Source: a virus
Strand: one strand, 5' to 3'
Length of the DNA stretch: 64,000 nt
Virus record (IMG/VR): IMGVR_UViG_3300008113_000084
Location: 25,382-89,381 of that record
The notes under the pieces are model-generated. The model did no database searches and had not been told where the DNA came from. It saw only the letters and a list, made by a program, of their open reading frames with translations. This document shows positions 1,289 to 61,751 of the stretch, piece by piece (the first letter of the stretch is position 1; each line of letters starts with the position of its first letter). A program made the translations under genes and the position numbers.

Positions 1289-1340
1289 TCGCTCTCCTAG
1301 CTAAAGAGAAATGCCCAGAGCGATAGCTGCTGGGCATTTG

Positions 1341-1369
1341 ATTATGACGTGTTTGTAGGGCTGTATTTA
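1341..1369 (-). promoter_or_regulatory. putative phage promoter TAAAT-N16-GTCATAAT
   Basis: Motif recurs at 60469-60496 and 60940-60967, each time heading a terminator-bounded unit. Confidence 0.6.
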
Positions 1370-23676: not shown

Positions 23677-24678
23677 CTAGGTTTTCTTACAGAAAGTTTC
23701 CCTAAACCGAACTACTTCTTCAGGGCTGGCGAAGAAGTGCTCTGGAACGAACAGGGACTCGTTCCAGGGATTGGGCATAGGGTACAGCAAGTTTAGCCAG
23801 CAGCCGTGTAGATACGATAGGAATTTCTGGCACGTGGCAAGAACAGCCTCGTCAAAATATTCTTTACGCTCTAGAGGGCTGCCGCTGATAAAAGACGACG
23901 CGACGTTAAAATAAGTGCCTAGCAGGAAATCCGTCTTGCCTGAGTCAGGCGTGATTAACATGGCGTCCCAGTTCTTGTAGGCCTGCCAGGAGCTGACCAC
24001 AAAACCTCGGCGCTGTGCCTTGGTGATAACGCCATCGTGGCCCTGCTCTTCGGACAGCCCGTGCTTGAGCTTGTTGACACCCATGTAGTCGTAATACTTC
24101 GACAGCTTGTTGGGGAAGAAAGTGTCAACAAACCAGCGAGGATCAATAGTCTGAGCGACGACCAGCATGCACGCATGATCGTTGACGCCTGGGACAAAAC
24201 GCAGGTATTTAGCCAGAGGAAGCTGCTCGTACAGGGCCATCAAAACATCCAGGTTAGCCGACACTGAACCAGGCTCAGCCAGGATGTGCGACATCGTGTA
24301 CACGATGTGATCGTCTTTGGTAACGCTGTGAAAGCCACCCAGAGTCGATGGATACTTCCAGCGACGCATGTTGAGCAAAACTTTTTCTGGGCAATATTCA
24401 TCGAGATTGATCAGCTCGACTTGAGGGCTGCAAACCTGTACGTCTTTCAGCTCTCCCTTAACTTTGGCTTCATACAAAGCCGTTATCATCCTGGCATTTC
24501 TGCTGTCACCAACCAACCGAACAGTCAGTTTCTTGTTTAGAAAAGAAGGGCTGTCGCAGTAGTCCTCGTAGAGTATGTTGGACGGCCTTGGTGTGCCGTT
24601 ACCTGAGATATACCACACTTCATCGTCGAGAGAGTTGTACAACTTGAGTGTGGTTGTTTCATCGGTAAGGACACCCAT
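23677..24678 (-). CDS. IS110/Nop-fold-like protein, apparently catalytically inactive
   Basis: LRFVPGVNDHACMLVVAQTIDPRWF..KLSKYYDYMGV resembles the Transposase_20 HhH region; VQVCSP resembles the IS110 VxVVNP motif; no DEDD residues or catalytic SG seen. Confidence 0.5.
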   Translation of the reverse strand: MGVLTDETTTLKLYNSLDDEVWYISGNGTPRPSNILYEDYCDSPSFLNKKLTVRLVGDSRNARMITALYEAKVKGELKDVQVCSPQVELINLDEYCPEKVLLNMRRWKYPSTLGGFHSVTKDDHIVYTMSHILAEPGSVSANLDVLMALYEQLPLAKYLRFVPGVNDHACMLVVAQTIDPRWFVDTFFPNKLSKYYDYMGVNKLKHGLSEEQGHDGVITKAQRRGFVVSSWQAYKNWDAMLITPDSGKTDFLLGTYFNVASSFISGSPLERKEYFDEAVLATCQKFLSYLHGCWLNLLYPMPNPWNESLFVPEHFFASPEEVVRFRETFCKKT

Positions 24679-28021: not shown

Positions 28022-28201
28022 ATGCTCGTTGTGACGCGGAGACCTAAAGAGATTATCAGAATAAATGAGAACATAGTTGTAGAGGTTTTAATCATCAACA
28101 ATGGAAGTGTCAAGATAGGCATACAGGCTCCAAAAGATATACCGGTGATGCGTGGTGAATTAAGAGGTTCGTGCAGAAAGACTAGAAAGGATAGCGAATA
28201 A
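28022..28201 (+). CDS. csrA: carbon storage regulator CsrA (59 aa, missed by the ORF track)
   Basis: MLVVTRRPKEIIRINENIVVEVLIINNGSVKIGIQAPKDIPVMRGEL; AAGGAG SD; stop overlaps the next ATG. Confidence 0.92.
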   Translation: MLVVTRRPKEIIRINENIVVEVLIINNGSVKIGIQAPKDIPVMRGELRGSCRKTRKDSE

Positions 28202-37615: not shown

Positions 37616-37818
37616 TCAACATCGTCTTCAGACTCTTCCAGTAGCTCTTCCCTAAAGATTGCCACCTTTTCTGACGCGTTGAACCGAAGAGAAACTTTTC
37701 TCGGGTCGATCCAGGTCACGGTTATCCATATCTTTTCGTCTCCTATCATAAGCATTACTTTCTGGCCAGGTTTGCGAGTAAGAACCAGTCCTGGCTTTGC
37801 TTCGTCTTCTTCGTCCAT
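37612..37818 (-). CDS. csrA: second, divergent CsrA-like protein
   Basis: LVLTRKPGQKVML.IGDE.IWITV...KVSLRFNASEKVAIFREEL. Confidence 0.8.
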   Translation of the reverse strand: MDEEDEAKPGLVLTRKPGQKVMLMIGDEKIWITVTWIDPRKVSLRFNASEKVAIFREELLEESEDDVE

Positions 37819-59867: not shown

Positions 59868-60139
59868 TAGATGACCGCCTCCTGGACAGGGTAGTGAGCA
59901 CGTACCAGTCGTGTGGAGGCGTTCTTGAAGTCCTCGCCCAGGAGAGACTTACCGTTCTCGTCCACCCACTCGGTCCAGCTTCCGCCTGTGAATCCAGGAA
60001 CGGACAGCCCGTTCTTTCGTGCAAAGTCCAGAGCCAGGTTGCGAGCTTCGAGGCCCTTTACCTGCTCCAGGTTGTCAGCTTCGACTACAACGGTAGCCTT
60101 AGGCCCAGACCTCTCGAATGATTCTTCTACAATACGCAT
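59867..60139 (-). CDS. hypothetical protein
   Basis: 90-aa ORF with AAGGA SD. Confidence 0.7.
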   Translation of the reverse strand: MRIVEESFERSGPKATVVVEADNLEQVKGLEARNLALDFARKNGLSVPGFTGGSWTEWVDENGKSLLGEDFKNASTRLVRAHYPVQEAVI

Positions 60140-60197
60140 GTTTGTTCCTTTCGTAAAAGACCCGCCTACATCCTACTGTTTTTAAGGTTCTTTTCCA

Positions 60198-60260
60198 ATA
60201 GCTAAGGAAAAACCCCGACTAACCCGCAGCTCTCGAAAGAGTTGCGGGTTGTGGGGTTTT
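60198..60260 (-). terminator. intrinsic terminator (UUCG loop) plus TTAGCTAT
   Basis: AAAACCCC..AACCCGCA.CTCT-TTCG-AGAG.TGCGGGTT..GGGGTTTTT-CC-TTAGCTAT. Confidence 0.85.
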
Positions 60261-60264
60261 ATAG

Positions 60265-60426
60265 TTATTTGCATAACTGGCGCAGGTAGCGCTTTTTAGC
60301 GCCACTGCTGGTAAGGACTGTTGGGCGCATGGACACGCCCAGCTCGATGAGCCTCTGCTGGGTAGCAGTCAGCTCGATCTGGACCTTACCCACCACAAGC
60401 TGATTCTTAAGAACGATAGTCCTCAT
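60265..60426 (-). CDS. 53-aa basic peptide in its own cassette (not in ORF track)
   Basis: MRTIVLKNQLVVGKVQIELTATQQRLIELGVSMRPTVLTSSGAKKRYLRQLCK*; AAGGAG SD. Confidence 0.65.
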   Translation of the reverse strand: MRTIVLKNQLVVGKVQIELTATQQRLIELGVSMRPTVLTSSGAKKRYLRQLCK

Positions 60427-60468
60427 TAAACGTCTCCTTGACTGAGAGGGCTAATACTACACCAATAG

Positions 60469-60507
60469 ATTATGACCTGAAATCGCTGTGGATTTATTCA
60501 GGTCATA
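60469..60507 (-). promoter_or_regulatory. promoter TAAAT-N15-GTCATAAT overlapped by an 11-bp inverted repeat
   Basis: TATGACCTGAA (60471-60481) / TTCAGGTCATA (60497-60507). Confidence 0.6.
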
Positions 60508-60510
60508 GCT

Positions 60511-60933
60511 AAAAACAAAACCGACCAAGCCAGCGCTTAATAGCACTGGCCTAGTCGGTATGTTTATCCACGACTCATCACGTGGTCCCATTTAACTTAG
60601 GTGGGTTACCTAACGACGTTGACTGCTACACTTCGCAGTAGCTTCCATCAACGCGACCTCATAGCGCCCACCGCTCTCCGCTCTGGTCTGTGGGAGACCT
60701 CCTATGTTTACACCGTAGGTAATGGGAGCCTTGTCGCGGTATCCAATACGACACTGGTTTATTAGGATTGCCAGTGTGTTCCTTGCAGTATGTAGTTACT
60801 GCCAACTGCCCTTTTCAGGTAGGGCACTCTTTCGAGCCGCTAGAACGCGCACCTATCTCGTGTCGGGCGTCAGCCTTAGAGACATGGGGACTGACGGAAC
60901 GCAGTAGGTCTTGTGCGACAGCTACTTAGCATT
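60511..60933 (-). ncRNA. candidate independently transcribed structured RNA (~420 nt)
   Basis: Promoter motif at 60940-60967 and terminator at ~60511-60560; no - strand ORF with an SD; ~10 hairpins in two closed domains. Confidence 0.65.
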
Positions 60934-60971
60934 CATTTTATTCTGACGTGTTTTTTCTTTGAATTAAGCAG

Positions 60972-61274
60972 TCACATGGTGATCTGCACAAGCTTGCCAG
61001 ACTCGCTGCCGTAGATGACTCGTATCTTGTCAGCGCCCAGCTCCTTCTTCAGACGAGCCAGCGGTTCGCCCCTTAGGTTGGCGATGACTCGCTTGGCTTG
61101 GGCGTAGTTCAAGGACTTGGCAGCAGCTTTCCTGGCGCAAGGCCTGCACGTTGGGCTGCCTGGATTCTTGGAGGAGGCAGCCGTCTTCAGCGAGGGTATG
61201 TCTGCCAACAGCTTAGGATTGGTCAGCAGAGACGTGATGACCGAGTCCTCGACGATTACCAGTTTCTCAGCCAT
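60972..61274 (-). CDS. small basic protein with CxxC
   Basis: CRPC; 100 aa. Confidence 0.7.
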   Translation of the reverse strand: MAEKLVIVEDSVITSLLTNPKLLADIPSLKTAASSKNPGSPTCRPCARKAAAKSLNYAQAKRVIANLRGEPLARLKKELGADKIRVIYGSESGKLVQITM

Positions 61275-61277
61275 GGC

Positions 61278-61751
61278 TCACTCCGTCGGGGCGATTGTCG
61301 GCGGGGGGTCGCCGAACTTGAGTTCTGTTTGCGGGGCTGTTACGTCCATTCTGTTGAGCGTATTCACCAAGGCGGCTACTTCCTCGGTAAGCAGCTGCCA
61401 GGCTTCCTCGGCCAGAGACTGGGACCTAAACACCAGGTCCACGTAGTCCAGGCGACAGAACTCTGGGTATACGTTGACCAGAGGCTCGTCCTCTGGAAAC
61501 TCCTCCAGGTCTGAAGGGGAGCAGACGCCGTCAAAGGCCAGTCGGTACGAACCCTCTCTGGCGTTCAGAGCTTCCCTGGTATACCTGAAAATTTTGTCGG
61601 GCATGAGGTTGCCGCCGTAGGCCACAACCTTGAACCTGAAGCCCGTGATGCTGTTGGACCTATATTCTGTCTGGGTGAACCGCTTCAGCCAGATGCCCCT
61701 GCCGTAGTCTGGGTTACCCACGGAGGAACTGATAGACGACGAAGAGGGCAT
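61278..61751 (-). CDS. hypothetical protein
   Basis: 157-aa ORF with GAGGTGAGG SD. Confidence 0.7.
   Translation of the reverse strand: MPSSSSISSSVGNPDYGRGIWLKRFTQTEYRSNSITGFRFKVVAYGGNLMPDKIFRYTREALNAREGSYRLAFDGVCSPSDLEEFPEDEPLVNVYPEFCRLDYVDLVFRSQSLAEEAWQLLTEEVAALVNTLNRMDVTAPQTELKFGDPPPTIAPTE

What the first reader, a model, noticed from the sequence alone, without database searches (positions are those of the whole stretch)
60511..60967. Stand-alone ~420-nt structured non-coding RNA with its own promoter and terminator
Seen: the unit has the same promoter motif and terminator+TTAGCTAT end as the protein cassettes, but no - strand ORF with an RBS. It folds into two closed domains (TGTCGC 60732-37 with GCGACA 60915-20; TCCCATT 60586-92 with AATGGGA 60721-27). 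These contain about 10 hairpins, e.g. CGUCAGUC/GGCUGACG, UGCCCU/AGGGCA, GCAGUA/UACUGC, ACACUGG/CCAGUGU, CUC-GAAA-GAG, CGUUGA/UCAACG and UUAGGU/ACCUAA. A CUA triplet recurs in or next to several loops (CCUAC, CUCUAA, ACUAC, UCCUAA). I see no tmRNA, RNase P, SRP or hammerhead hallmarks. Inference: a previously undescribed phage ncRNA, possibly a protein sponge (CsrB-like logic with a different motif), a scaffold or a guide RNA.
Basis: partly seen in the sequence, partly recalled or inferred. Interest (0 to 1): 0.82.

Follow-up and report, generated by a model that had tools for sequence, protein, structure and literature searches.

The report
Expressed orphan phage non-coding RNA
An uncultured lake phage of about 190 kb carries a stand-alone gene for a roughly 340-base non-coding RNA that turns up as a discrete transcript in lake RNA samples, matches no known RNA family, and sits in a swap-in slot where related phages carry other small RNAs or a CRISPR mini-array; its function is unknown.

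Summary
The unit is real. A phage-type promoter (AAACACGTCAGAAT, 60940-60953) and an 18-bp terminator followed by TTAGCTAT bracket about 420 nt with no conserved ORF.

Assembled contigs from three lake metatranscriptome runs (two studies) cover only 60585-60923, 60585-60919 and 60674-60902. The flanking genes did not assemble in two of those runs. This points to a discrete, fairly abundant RNA of about 340 nt that ends before the terminator.

Rfam and ARAGORN find nothing, and there is no reverse transcriptase or Ro protein. Only two relatives (L003, L009) hold a homologous RNA. Conserved blocks persist although synonymous sites in the flanking genes are near saturation, and several hairpins keep pairing through double changes.

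- The RNA body folds no better than ordinary windows of this phage (z -1.55; controls average -2.09).
- The "two closed domains" fold depends on the exact 5' end, and its closing helices are not conserved.
- CUA enrichment is absent from the homologue, and GGA is not enriched even though the phage encodes two CsrA homologues.

The same slot in other relatives holds unrelated small RNAs or a five-repeat CRISPR mini-array. My best reading is a new, narrowly distributed accessory RNA, probably protein-binding. Its mechanism is untested.

The parts
60935..60971 (-). Promoter region. It holds the left boundary CTGCTTAATTCA (60960-60971), the phage promoter motif AAACACGTCAGAAT (60940-60953) and -10-like hexamers (CAGAAT 60945-60940; TAAAAT 60940-60935). 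The predicted start of transcription is about 60926-60934.
   Evidence: The same motif precedes other cassettes in relatives. It is 82% identical to L003, while third codon positions of the flanking genes are about 50% identical.
60585..60923 (-). RNA body recovered from lake metatranscriptomes (about 340 nt)
   Evidence: Contigs cover 60585-60923 (339 nt, run X19), 60585-60919 (335 nt, X20, a different study) and 60674-60902 (229 nt, X18). All have 0 mismatches and no sequence beyond these ends. The strand is inferred from the promoter and terminator, because contigs carry no strand.
60732..60920 (-). 5' domain. In this phage it is closed by UGUCGC/GCGACA and holds hairpins CGUCAGUC/GGCUGACG, CUC-GAAA-GAG, UGCCCU/AGGGCA, GCAGUA/UACUGC and ACACUGG/CCAGUGU. 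It is about 100 nt longer than in L003.
   Evidence: Only a core (GUUCUAG...CAGUUGG...ACAU) aligns with L003.
60657..60724 (-). Conserved core block 1: CAUUACCU-hairpin-AGGAGGU, a hairpin with a CCAGAG loop, a hairpin AGCG(G)...(C)CGCU, then AUGAG
   Evidence: 43 of 68 columns are invariant among W, L003 and L009. The pair CCUA/UAGG in W becomes CCUG/CAGG in L003 and CCUGUG/CACAGG in L009.
60584..60613 (-). Conserved core block 2: hairpin UUAGGU-AACCC-ACCUAA followed by GUUAAAUGGGACC. A possible pseudoknot pairs CCC(A) with UGGG. A possible conserved domain closure pairs GGUCUC (60700-60695) with GGGACC.
   Evidence: 3 of 6 stem pairs changed on both sides, and 92% of cells paired against 33-40% when the partner is slid. 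Searches give the RNAalifold consensus.
60561..60585 (-). Hairpin CCACG-UGAUGAGU-CGUGG followed by AUAAACA, lying just 3' of the RNA-seq contig end. It may mark 3' processing. It has a weak likeness to the CRISPR repeat found in relatives.
   Evidence: The likeness to the repeat is not significant (78 of 1000 shuffles score as high).
60505..60559 (-). Intrinsic terminator (18-bp stem 60559-60520, U-run 60520-60511) and the TTAGCTAT end motif (60512-60505)
   Evidence: L003/L009 have a terminator of different sequence but the same architecture, with an identical TTTTGTTTTTAGCTATG tail.

Best explanation
Shown: this is an independent gene for a non-coding RNA. It is transcribed on the minus strand from a phage-type promoter. 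It accumulates in nature as a discrete species of about 340 nt whose 3' end lies upstream of its own terminator. It belongs to a new and very small RNA family, found only in this phage and in the L003/L009 lineage. It occupies a promoter-to-terminator cassette slot whose cargo differs among related phages of about 190 kb: unrelated RNAs of about 90 nt or about 270 nt, or a five-repeat CRISPR mini-array.

Inferred: it acts in trans as a stable, fairly abundant structured RNA that works by binding a protein, as a decoy or scaffold. Binding would use the sequence-conserved, probably exposed elements CAUUA, AGGAGGU, the CCAGAG loop, the AACCC loop and GUUAAAUGGG. The hairpins that carry these elements are free to vary. 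Because the slot's cargo turns over quickly and includes CRISPR arrays in relatives, the role is most likely an accessory one in phage-host or phage-phage conflict rather than a core replication function. The binding partner is unknown.
For: - Transcription signals.
- Discrete RNA contigs in 3 runs from 2 studies. Two share the same 3' end at 60585. The flanking genes did not assemble in X19 and X20, while a DNA run covers everything.
- No conserved ORF.
- No Rfam, tRNA or tmRNA match; no reverse transcriptase or TROVE domain.
- Conservation against a near-saturated background. W versus L003 third codon positions are 45-54% identical in the three flanking genes. The RNA is 72.5% identical in aligned columns, with long invariant blocks.
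- Structure-preserving change: 3 of 6 stem pairs changed on both sides under an invariant AACCC loop. The module hairpin, the 3' hairpin and the terminator each keep pairing with different sequence. L003 versus L009 substitutions include G-C to G-U changes (sequences). For the anchored 3'-domain alignment, the consensus fold has z = -2.09 against column shuffles, with 8 of 200 as good.
- Slot variability and the mini-array in relatives.
Against: - Only two effectively independent sequences exist, so covariation is anecdotal. The shuffle control reaches the observed value in 68 of 500 trials, and the structure conservation index is only 0.45.
- The RNA body is not thermodynamically unusual.
- Between the close pair L003 and L009 the RNA diverged 3.7%, about the synonymous rate of the neighbouring genes. 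Short-term constraint therefore looks weak.
- The metatranscriptome data are assembled contigs without strand or true ends.
- No partner protein was identified. The neighbouring 100-aa protein has no family or fold match.
- The conflict role is inferred from context alone.
Confidence: 0.4

Rival explanations
1. Base-pairing regulator. The RNA acts through antisense pairing with host mRNAs, or with the 3' end of 16S rRNA. Its conserved AGGAGGU is a perfect Shine-Dalgarno mimic with no start codon behind it.
For: AGGAGGU is kept at least once in every homologue, and twice in L003. It is half buried in a hairpin whose stem covaries. The host is unknown, so host targets cannot be excluded.
Against: There is no significant complementarity to the phage's own genome: the best match is 13 nt at E = 0.37. 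One copy in L009 has mutated to AGGCGGU. In the partition function most of AGGAGGU is paired. At 340 nt with many hairpins it is large for a seed-pairing sRNA.
Confidence: 0.15
2. CsrA sponge. The RNA titrates host CsrA or the phage's own CsrA homologues, as CsrB and RsmZ do.
For: The phage encodes two CsrA homologues (61 and 43 bits against PF02599). Every relative that is complete enough also has CsrA. The ACA-N-AGGAGGU sequence of the module resembles, from my memory of the SELEX consensus, a high-affinity CsrA site.
Against: GGA occurs 6 times against 7 expected in the window RNA, and only 2-3 times in L003. Most GGA sites are not conserved. CsrA is also present in relatives that lack this RNA, G002 and G004, so the two do not co-vary.
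Confidence: 0.08
3. CRISPR-derived RNA. It is either a decayed mini-array or a solitary-repeat RNA anti-CRISPR (Racr) that engages the host's Cas6 or Cascade.
For: The orthologous slot in L006-L008, L014 and L015 holds five 29-nt repeats spaced 60-62 nt apart. The window hairpin CCACG...CGUGG-AUAA shares its stem and CGUGGAUAA with that repeat, and it sits at the RNA's apparent 3' end.
Against: The similarity is 9 contiguous bases, and 78 of 1000 shuffles score as high. That is far below the 41.1-bit cut-off used to call solitary repeats (PMC10651486, read). The closest homologue L003 has a different hairpin at this position. The window RNA has no direct repeats of 16 nt or more. The hairpin lies outside the assembled RNA.
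Confidence: 0.07
4. Filler or cis-acting element. The cassette matters as DNA, for example as a recombination module, transcriptional insulator or promoter-terminator pair. The transcript would be a stable by-product with no function in trans.
For: The RNA body folds no better than coding windows. It diverges at about the neutral rate between L003 and L009. Its content is replaced wholesale among relatives. PeSL cassettes in T4-type phages work at the DNA level (PMC2839356).
Against: Invariant blocks of 10-20 nt and compensatory stems persist between W and L003 although synonymous sites are near saturation. The RNA accumulates enough to assemble where neighbouring mRNAs do not.
Confidence: 0.17
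5. Self-processing or catalytic RNA. Its 3' end at about 60585 would be made by self-cleavage.
For: Contigs from two independent studies end at the same base, 25 nt before the terminator stem.
Against: No ribozyme family appears in Rfam even at E up to 10. Contig ends are not true RNA ends. RNase E cleavage in the AU-rich AUAAACAUA tract followed by trimming explains the same result.
Confidence: 0.04

Closest known systems
PeSL cassettes (promoter-early stem-loop) of T4-type phages (Arbiol et al. 2010, PMC2839356; Comeau et al. 2014, PMC4122927)
   Same: Both are short conserved units made of a strong sigma-70-like promoter and a stem-loop terminator. Both bracket non-essential, rapidly exchanged cargo in variable genome regions. 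Here the promoter and the terminator tail are far better conserved than the cargo.
   Different: PeSLs were described flanking small protein genes. Here the cargo is a 340-nt RNA, or in relatives small RNAs or a CRISPR mini-array. The motif sequences (AAACACGTCATAAT; TTAGCTAT) are unrelated to PeSLs, and this phage is not T4-like by any test I ran. Recombination at the motifs was not tested.
RNA anti-CRISPRs (Racr, solitary repeat units) and virus-borne CRISPR mini-arrays (Camara-Wilpert et al. 2023, PMC10651486; review PMC11656645)
   Same: Both are promoter-driven, highly expressed, cas-less non-coding units in phage intergenic regions. True mini-arrays occupy the same slot in relatives.
   Different: The window RNA has no significant repeat match, no repeat-spacer periodicity, and is several times longer than a solitary repeat unit.
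CsrB/RsmZ-type protein-sponge RNAs
   Same: Both are stand-alone, abundant structured RNAs of a few hundred nt ending in a terminator. CsrA homologues are encoded by the phage.
   Different: There is no enrichment or conservation of GGA motifs. There is no match to the Rfam CsrB, CsrC or Rsm families.
Large phage-associated orphan RNAs (GOLLD, ROOL) and phi29 pRNA (own knowledge; all are in Rfam)
   Same: All are phage-borne structured RNAs with their own transcription signals and, apart from pRNA, unknown function.
   Different: No Rfam match. This RNA is smaller than GOLLD or ROOL and is not next to tRNA genes. Nothing links it to the packaging genes.

Membership tests
Any Rfam 15 family (including tmRNA, RNase P, SRP, 6S, group I/II introns, ribozymes, CsrB/Rsm, Y RNA, pRNA, GOLLD, ROOL, CRISPR-DR) | Covariance-model score at or above the family's gathering threshold | tested here: not met
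   only four tRNAs, all elsewhere in the window; the best hits in 60300-61100 have E = 3.8 and 4.2, far below threshold; nothing in the homologous slots of relatives.
tRNA / tmRNA | Cloverleaf or tRNA-like domain detectable by ARAGORN | tested here: not met
   0 genes in 60000-61300.
CsrB/RsmZ-type sponge | Many GGA motifs, well above chance, presented in loops or single strands and conserved among homologues | tested here: not met
   6 observed against 7.0 expected. L003 has 2-3, and only the AGGAGGU site is shared.
CsrB/RsmZ-type sponge | A cognate CsrA protein is present | tested here: met
   two CsrA homologues, at window 28022-28165 (+) and 37633-37788 (-). They are also present in relatives that lack this RNA.
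Racr / solitary repeat unit | Significant sequence match to a CRISPR repeat (bit score of 41.1 or more in SRUFinder, PMC10651486), ideally the host's repeat type | tested here: not met
   the best local match to the relatives' repeat is 9 nt, and 78 of 1000 shuffles do as well. The host repeat is unknown. The genome-contig scan with the repeat core gave one chance hit.
Racr / solitary repeat unit | A promoter within 250 bp upstream, an intergenic position and no adjacent cas gene | tested here: inconclusive
   The position is intergenic and none of the neighbouring proteins matches a Cas family. However, the promoter-like site at 60963-60935 lies about 350 nt upstream of the repeat-like hairpin at 60585-60568, beyond the 250-bp limit. 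These features are not specific to Racrs in any case.
CRISPR mini-array | Two or more direct repeats of 24-40 nt separated by unique spacers of similar length | tested here: not met
   no direct repeat longer than 15 nt in 60450-61000. The feature is met in relatives L006-L008.
PeSL-type regulatory cassette | A sigma-70-like promoter plus a stem-loop terminator forming a conserved unit at the borders of variable cargo | tested here: met
   the promoter is 82% and the terminator tail and flank 91% identical to L003, while the cargo is largely unalignable.
PeSL-type regulatory cassette | Recombination between the motifs that produces shuffling or mini-circles; sequence homology to T4-type PeSLs | not tested
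   This needs read-level junction analysis, or PCR on phage DNA.
Retron or DGR non-coding RNA | An associated reverse transcriptase | tested here: not met
   no RVT_1 match in G000, nor in the 91-93% complete relatives G001 and G002.
Bacterial Y RNA (YrlA) | An associated Ro (TROVE) protein and a match to the Rfam model | tested here: not met

The most novel reading that the evidence does not exclude
The slot is a dedicated RNA-weapon bay of this phage clade. This 340-nt RNA would be a new, non-CRISPR class of structured RNA effector or counter-defence RNA, functionally interchangeable with the CRISPR mini-arrays that relatives carry at the same place. It would act on a host defence or a competing phage through its conserved loops.
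Probability: 0.18. Interest if true: 0.8.

Novelty: new variant of a known kind. Interest (0 to 1): 0.5.

Why it matters
Phage-encoded structured RNAs of a few hundred nucleotides are rare, and almost none has a known role. This one has unusually good support for an uncultured phage:
- transcription signals;
- a discrete transcript in natural lake RNA from independent studies;
- a diverged homologue with structure-preserving changes.

Its position is also informative. Relatives carry CRISPR mini-arrays or other small RNAs in the same exchangeable slot, which suggests that this clade keeps a bay for RNA cargo. If the RNA proves to be a decoy or a counter-defence molecule, it would add a new kind of RNA to the phage-host arms race. 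If it is neutral cargo, it still documents PeSL-like cassette shuffling outside T4-type phages.

Tried and rejected
- **More homologues.** Two motif scans of IMG/VR gave only coding or chance hits besides the known relative. Scans seeded with neighbour proteins gave no further carriers.
- **BLAST searches.** BLAST of the RNA against cultured phages found nothing (at E up to 5 only two 21-nt chance hits). BLAST against the relatives' whole genomes gave only a 16-nt match. Searches showed it lies just upstream of an ORF start on the opposite strand, which I read as a ribosome-binding region and so a chance match.
- **Host identification.** A genome-contig scan with the CRISPR repeat of the relatives gave one single-copy chance hit in an Acidobacteriaceae MAG. 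The amoC-phage idea taken from a preprint title was negative, but that search's own control did not ring, so it is uninformative. The genome search does not draw relatives for virus records.
- **Guide or antisense idea.** No significant complementarity to the phage's own genome.
- **Spacers of the relatives' mini-array.** No target in G000, G001 or the other held loci. In IMG/VR, spacers 1 and 2 matched only the arrays themselves.
- **Repeat mimicry by the 3' hairpin.** Not significant.
- **Neighbouring proteins as RNA partners.** No Pfam, PHROG, NCBIfam or PADLOC family. The AlphaFold2 model of the 100-aa protein (pLDDT 76) has no Foldseek match in the PDB.
The 333-aa protein at 23677-24678 has no Nop-domain or other Pfam hit and no PDB relative.
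- **Shared words between W and L003.** The shared 8- to 10-mers between W's 5' domain and L003's terminator are at chance level.
- **Depth of RNA contigs.** I did not use it to rank expression. The absence of flanking-gene contigs in X19 and X20 is only a hint.

Full report
**Source and setting.** The window is part of an IMG/VR virus record of 89,381 bases, estimated 43% complete. Its relatives are contigs of about 190 kb, 91-93% complete, from freshwater metagenomes. No cultured phage is close: the neighbour protein and the RNA have no match in 50,697 phage records. DNA runs from many lake and freshwater studies hold the 1.1-kb stretch word for word.

**The unit.** Read on the minus strand, the 100-aa gene ends at 60972. 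It is followed by:
- CTGCTTAATTCA, an A-run, and AAACACGTCAGAAT (60953-60940);
- -10-like hexamers;
- about 370 nt without a credible ORF;
- an 18-bp G+C-rich hairpin (60559-60520), TTTTGTTTTT and TTAGCTAT.

After that come a conserved palindrome, a second GTCATAAT promoter and the 53-aa gene. The 14-mer promoter motif occurs exactly twice in the 64 kb. The other copy, at 1341-1354, precedes a 5' hairpin and a small protein gene. In relatives the motif likewise precedes either hairpin leaders of protein genes or short terminated RNAs. TTAGCTAT follows terminators at four minus-strand sites with at most one mismatch.

**Non-coding.** The only minus-strand ORFs are 48 aa (TTG start) and 44 aa; the second runs through the terminator. 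A six-frame comparison with the homologous region of L003 shows stops in every frame and no shared reading frame. The perfect Shine-Dalgarno-like AGGAGGU has no start codon within reach in any homologue.

**Expression.** Three lake-water metatranscriptome runs from two studies hold about 26-27% of the words of the 1.1-kb query. Laid on the window, their contigs are 60585-60923 (339 nt), 60585-60919 (335 nt) and 60674-60902 (229 nt). All are error-free, and each contig ends where the match ends. The flanking genes are not covered in X19 and X20, whereas a DNA run covers the whole stretch.

These are assemblies, so they carry no strand, no true ends and no reliable depth. Even so, three contigs confined to the predicted unit are hard to explain by DNA carry-over. 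The 5' ends lie 3-14 nt downstream of the predicted start. The common 3' end lies 25 nt before the terminator stem, at the foot of the hairpin CCACG-UGAUGAGU-CGUGG. I read this as a discrete, fairly abundant RNA of about 340 nt (up to about 360 nt) that is probably trimmed at the 3' end. This is inference, not proof.

**Known families.** None applies.
- Rfam at gathering thresholds finds only four tRNAs elsewhere. A permissive scan of the locus gives noise only, and the same holds for the relatives' slots.
- ARAGORN finds nothing.
- There is no reverse transcriptase or Ro/TROVE protein in this record or in two nearly complete relatives. That removes retron, DGR and Y-RNA readings.

**Is the structure more than chance?** On thermodynamics alone, no. 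The whole unit scores z = -4.86. The RNA body without the terminator scores -1.55, against a mean of -2.09 (sd 1.75) for 30 control windows of the same phage. The fold into two closed domains is the minimum-energy fold, and nearly certain (p 0.97-1.0), when the 5' end is at 60930 or 60923. It drops to p of about 0.3 with three more 5' nucleotides, which allow a competing 5' hairpin.

The comparative evidence is better, but thin.
- Only L003 (IMGVR_UViG_3300046777_002520) and the near-identical L009 carry a homologue.
- Between the window and L003, third codon positions of the three flanking genes are 45-54% identical. The RNA keeps 72.5% identity in aligned columns, with 130 gap columns and invariant runs such as CAUUACCU, CCAGAG, GAGCGGU, GUAACCC and GUUAAAUGGG.
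- The hairpin with the invariant AACCC loop has three of six pairs changed on both sides. 92% of its cells are paired, against 33-40% for slid partners.
- The module hairpin changes from CCUA/UAGG to CCUG/CAGG to CCUGUG/CACAGG. The 3' hairpin and the terminator keep their form with different sequence.
- Reading the two sequences by eye, several L003-L009 differences are G-C to G-U changes.
- An anchored alignment of the 3' domain gives an RNAalifold consensus better than 192 of 200 column shuffles (z = -2.09, structure conservation index 0.45).
- The window-specific closing helix of the 5' domain lies in an insertion of about 75 nt that L003 does not have.
- The thermodynamic ensemble gives the best-supported comparative hairpin only p = 0.01-0.03. 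Single-sequence folds here should therefore not be trusted.
- Between L003 and L009 the RNA diverged 3.7%, against 0-1.7% for the genes, roughly the synonymous rate. Five of the twelve changes cluster in one hairpin, which becomes identical in its stem to the second module copy. That looks like gene conversion.

**The motif ideas.** CUA occurs 11 times against 4.8 expected. This is not significant over 64 triplets, and the homologue does not share it. GGA occurs 6 times against 7 expected. The phage does encode two CsrA homologues, but so do relatives that lack this RNA. A CsrB-like multi-site sponge is therefore unlikely. A single high-affinity site at AGGAGGU remains possible.

**The slot.** The same position, between orthologues of the 100-aa and the 53-aa or 90-aa genes and behind the same promoter motif, holds different cargo in different relatives:
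- an unrelated RNA of about 270 nt in L004, L010 and L011;
- RNAs of about 90 nt in L005/L013 and in L012/L125;
- a leader plus five 29-nt repeats at 60-62-nt spacing, a classical CRISPR mini-array, in L006, L007, L008, L014 and L015.

Apart from the window and L003, these cargoes share no 8-mers beyond the flanks. The spacers of the mini-array found no target in the sequences I could search.

The window's 3' hairpin shares CGUGGAUAA and its stem with that repeat. This is not significant and L003 lacks it, so I treat it as a curiosity.

Structurally the frame resembles the PeSL promoter-terminator cassettes that shuffle accessory genes in T4-type phages (PMC2839356, PMC4122927), here with RNA cargo. 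First-stage notes on relatives described the same cassette system (e1-5812049) and multi-copy leader-plus-array cassettes (e1-5875320). I checked the array myself, but not the multi-copy claim.

**Mechanism.** Three things are shown: it is an independent unit, it accumulates as RNA, and it is a narrow new family with conserved blocks. What follows is inference.

A stable RNA whose conserved parts are mostly loops and linkers, carried on variable hairpins, most likely works by being bound. It would act as a decoy or scaffold for a host or phage protein. A slot whose cargo turns over this fast, and includes CRISPR arrays, suggests an accessory conflict role. I give this 0.4.

The rivals are:
- a by-product of a DNA-level cassette (0.17);
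- a base-pairing or Shine-Dalgarno-mimic regulator (0.15);
- a CsrA sponge (0.08);
- a CRISPR-derived RNA or Racr (0.07);
- a self-processing RNA (0.04).

**Verdict.** This is a genuine, expressed, previously undescribed phage non-coding RNA, but with a very narrow distribution, unexceptional folding energy, structure supported by only two lineages, and no tested function. It deserves moderate interest. The most useful next steps are read-level mapping of the metatranscriptomes and recovery of the slot from the remaining relatives for a proper covariation test.

Noticed in passing
L006:3421-3693 (also L007, L008, L014, L015): A cas-less CRISPR mini-array sits in the slot orthologous to the window RNA. 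It has five 29-nt repeats (GTCTCACCCACGCGTGCGTGGATAAGGGG, the last two degenerate) at 60-62-nt spacing, behind the same phage promoter and a folded leader. The spacers found no target in G000, G001 or the other held loci, and spacers 1 and 2 found none in IMG/VR. The repeat core has no array match in 185,579 representative genomes.
   Followed up: partly
window 28022-28165 (+) and 37633-37788 (-): There are two phage-encoded CsrA homologues (PF02599, 61 and 43-44 bits). CsrA is also present in relatives G001 (two copies), G002 and G004, so it is a clade-wide feature of these lake phages.
   Followed up: partly
window 60427-60519 (-): The stretch between the RNA's terminator and the 53-aa gene is 91% identical to L003, although synonymous sites of the flanking genes are about 50% identical. 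It holds the palindrome GACCTGAA...TTCAGGTC overlapping a GTCATAAT promoter. It is probably an operator, and the small basic 53-aa protein may be its regulator.
   Followed up: no
window 1297-1354 (-); L136, L137, L139: The same promoter motif is followed at once by a hairpin that starts at the predicted transcript 5' end, then a U-run, then TTAG plus a ribosome-binding site and a small gene. This promoter-hairpin-terminator leader precedes protein genes and could be an attenuation or antitermination checkpoint.
   Followed up: partly
L003:3426-3560 and L009:2926-3060: The module UUACCU-hairpin-AGGAGGU is duplicated in the L003/L009 RNA. In L009 the first copy has five clustered substitutions that make its stem identical to that of the second copy (CCUGUG/CACAGG), which looks like gene conversion between the modules.
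   Followed up: partly
L004:3300-3700; L005:3330-3430; L012:2830-2925: Unrelated terminated RNAs occupy the same slot: about 270 nt preceded by a second mini-unit in L004, and about 90 nt in L005 and L012. The L005 RNA presents ACCUCC, which resembles an anti-Shine-Dalgarno sequence, in a hairpin loop. None matches Rfam.
   Followed up: partly
window 60972-61274 (-): The conserved 100-aa protein next to the slot (invariant P-x-C-x-P-C) forms 14 clusters in the protein database. It has no Pfam, PHROG or PADLOC family; its only NCBIfam match (YaaA, 17.5 bits against a 339-bit cut-off) is noise. Its AlphaFold2 model (pLDDT 76) has no PDB fold match.
   Followed up: partly
Pfam (E up to 1) and a sequence search of the PDB give no support.
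   Followed up: partly
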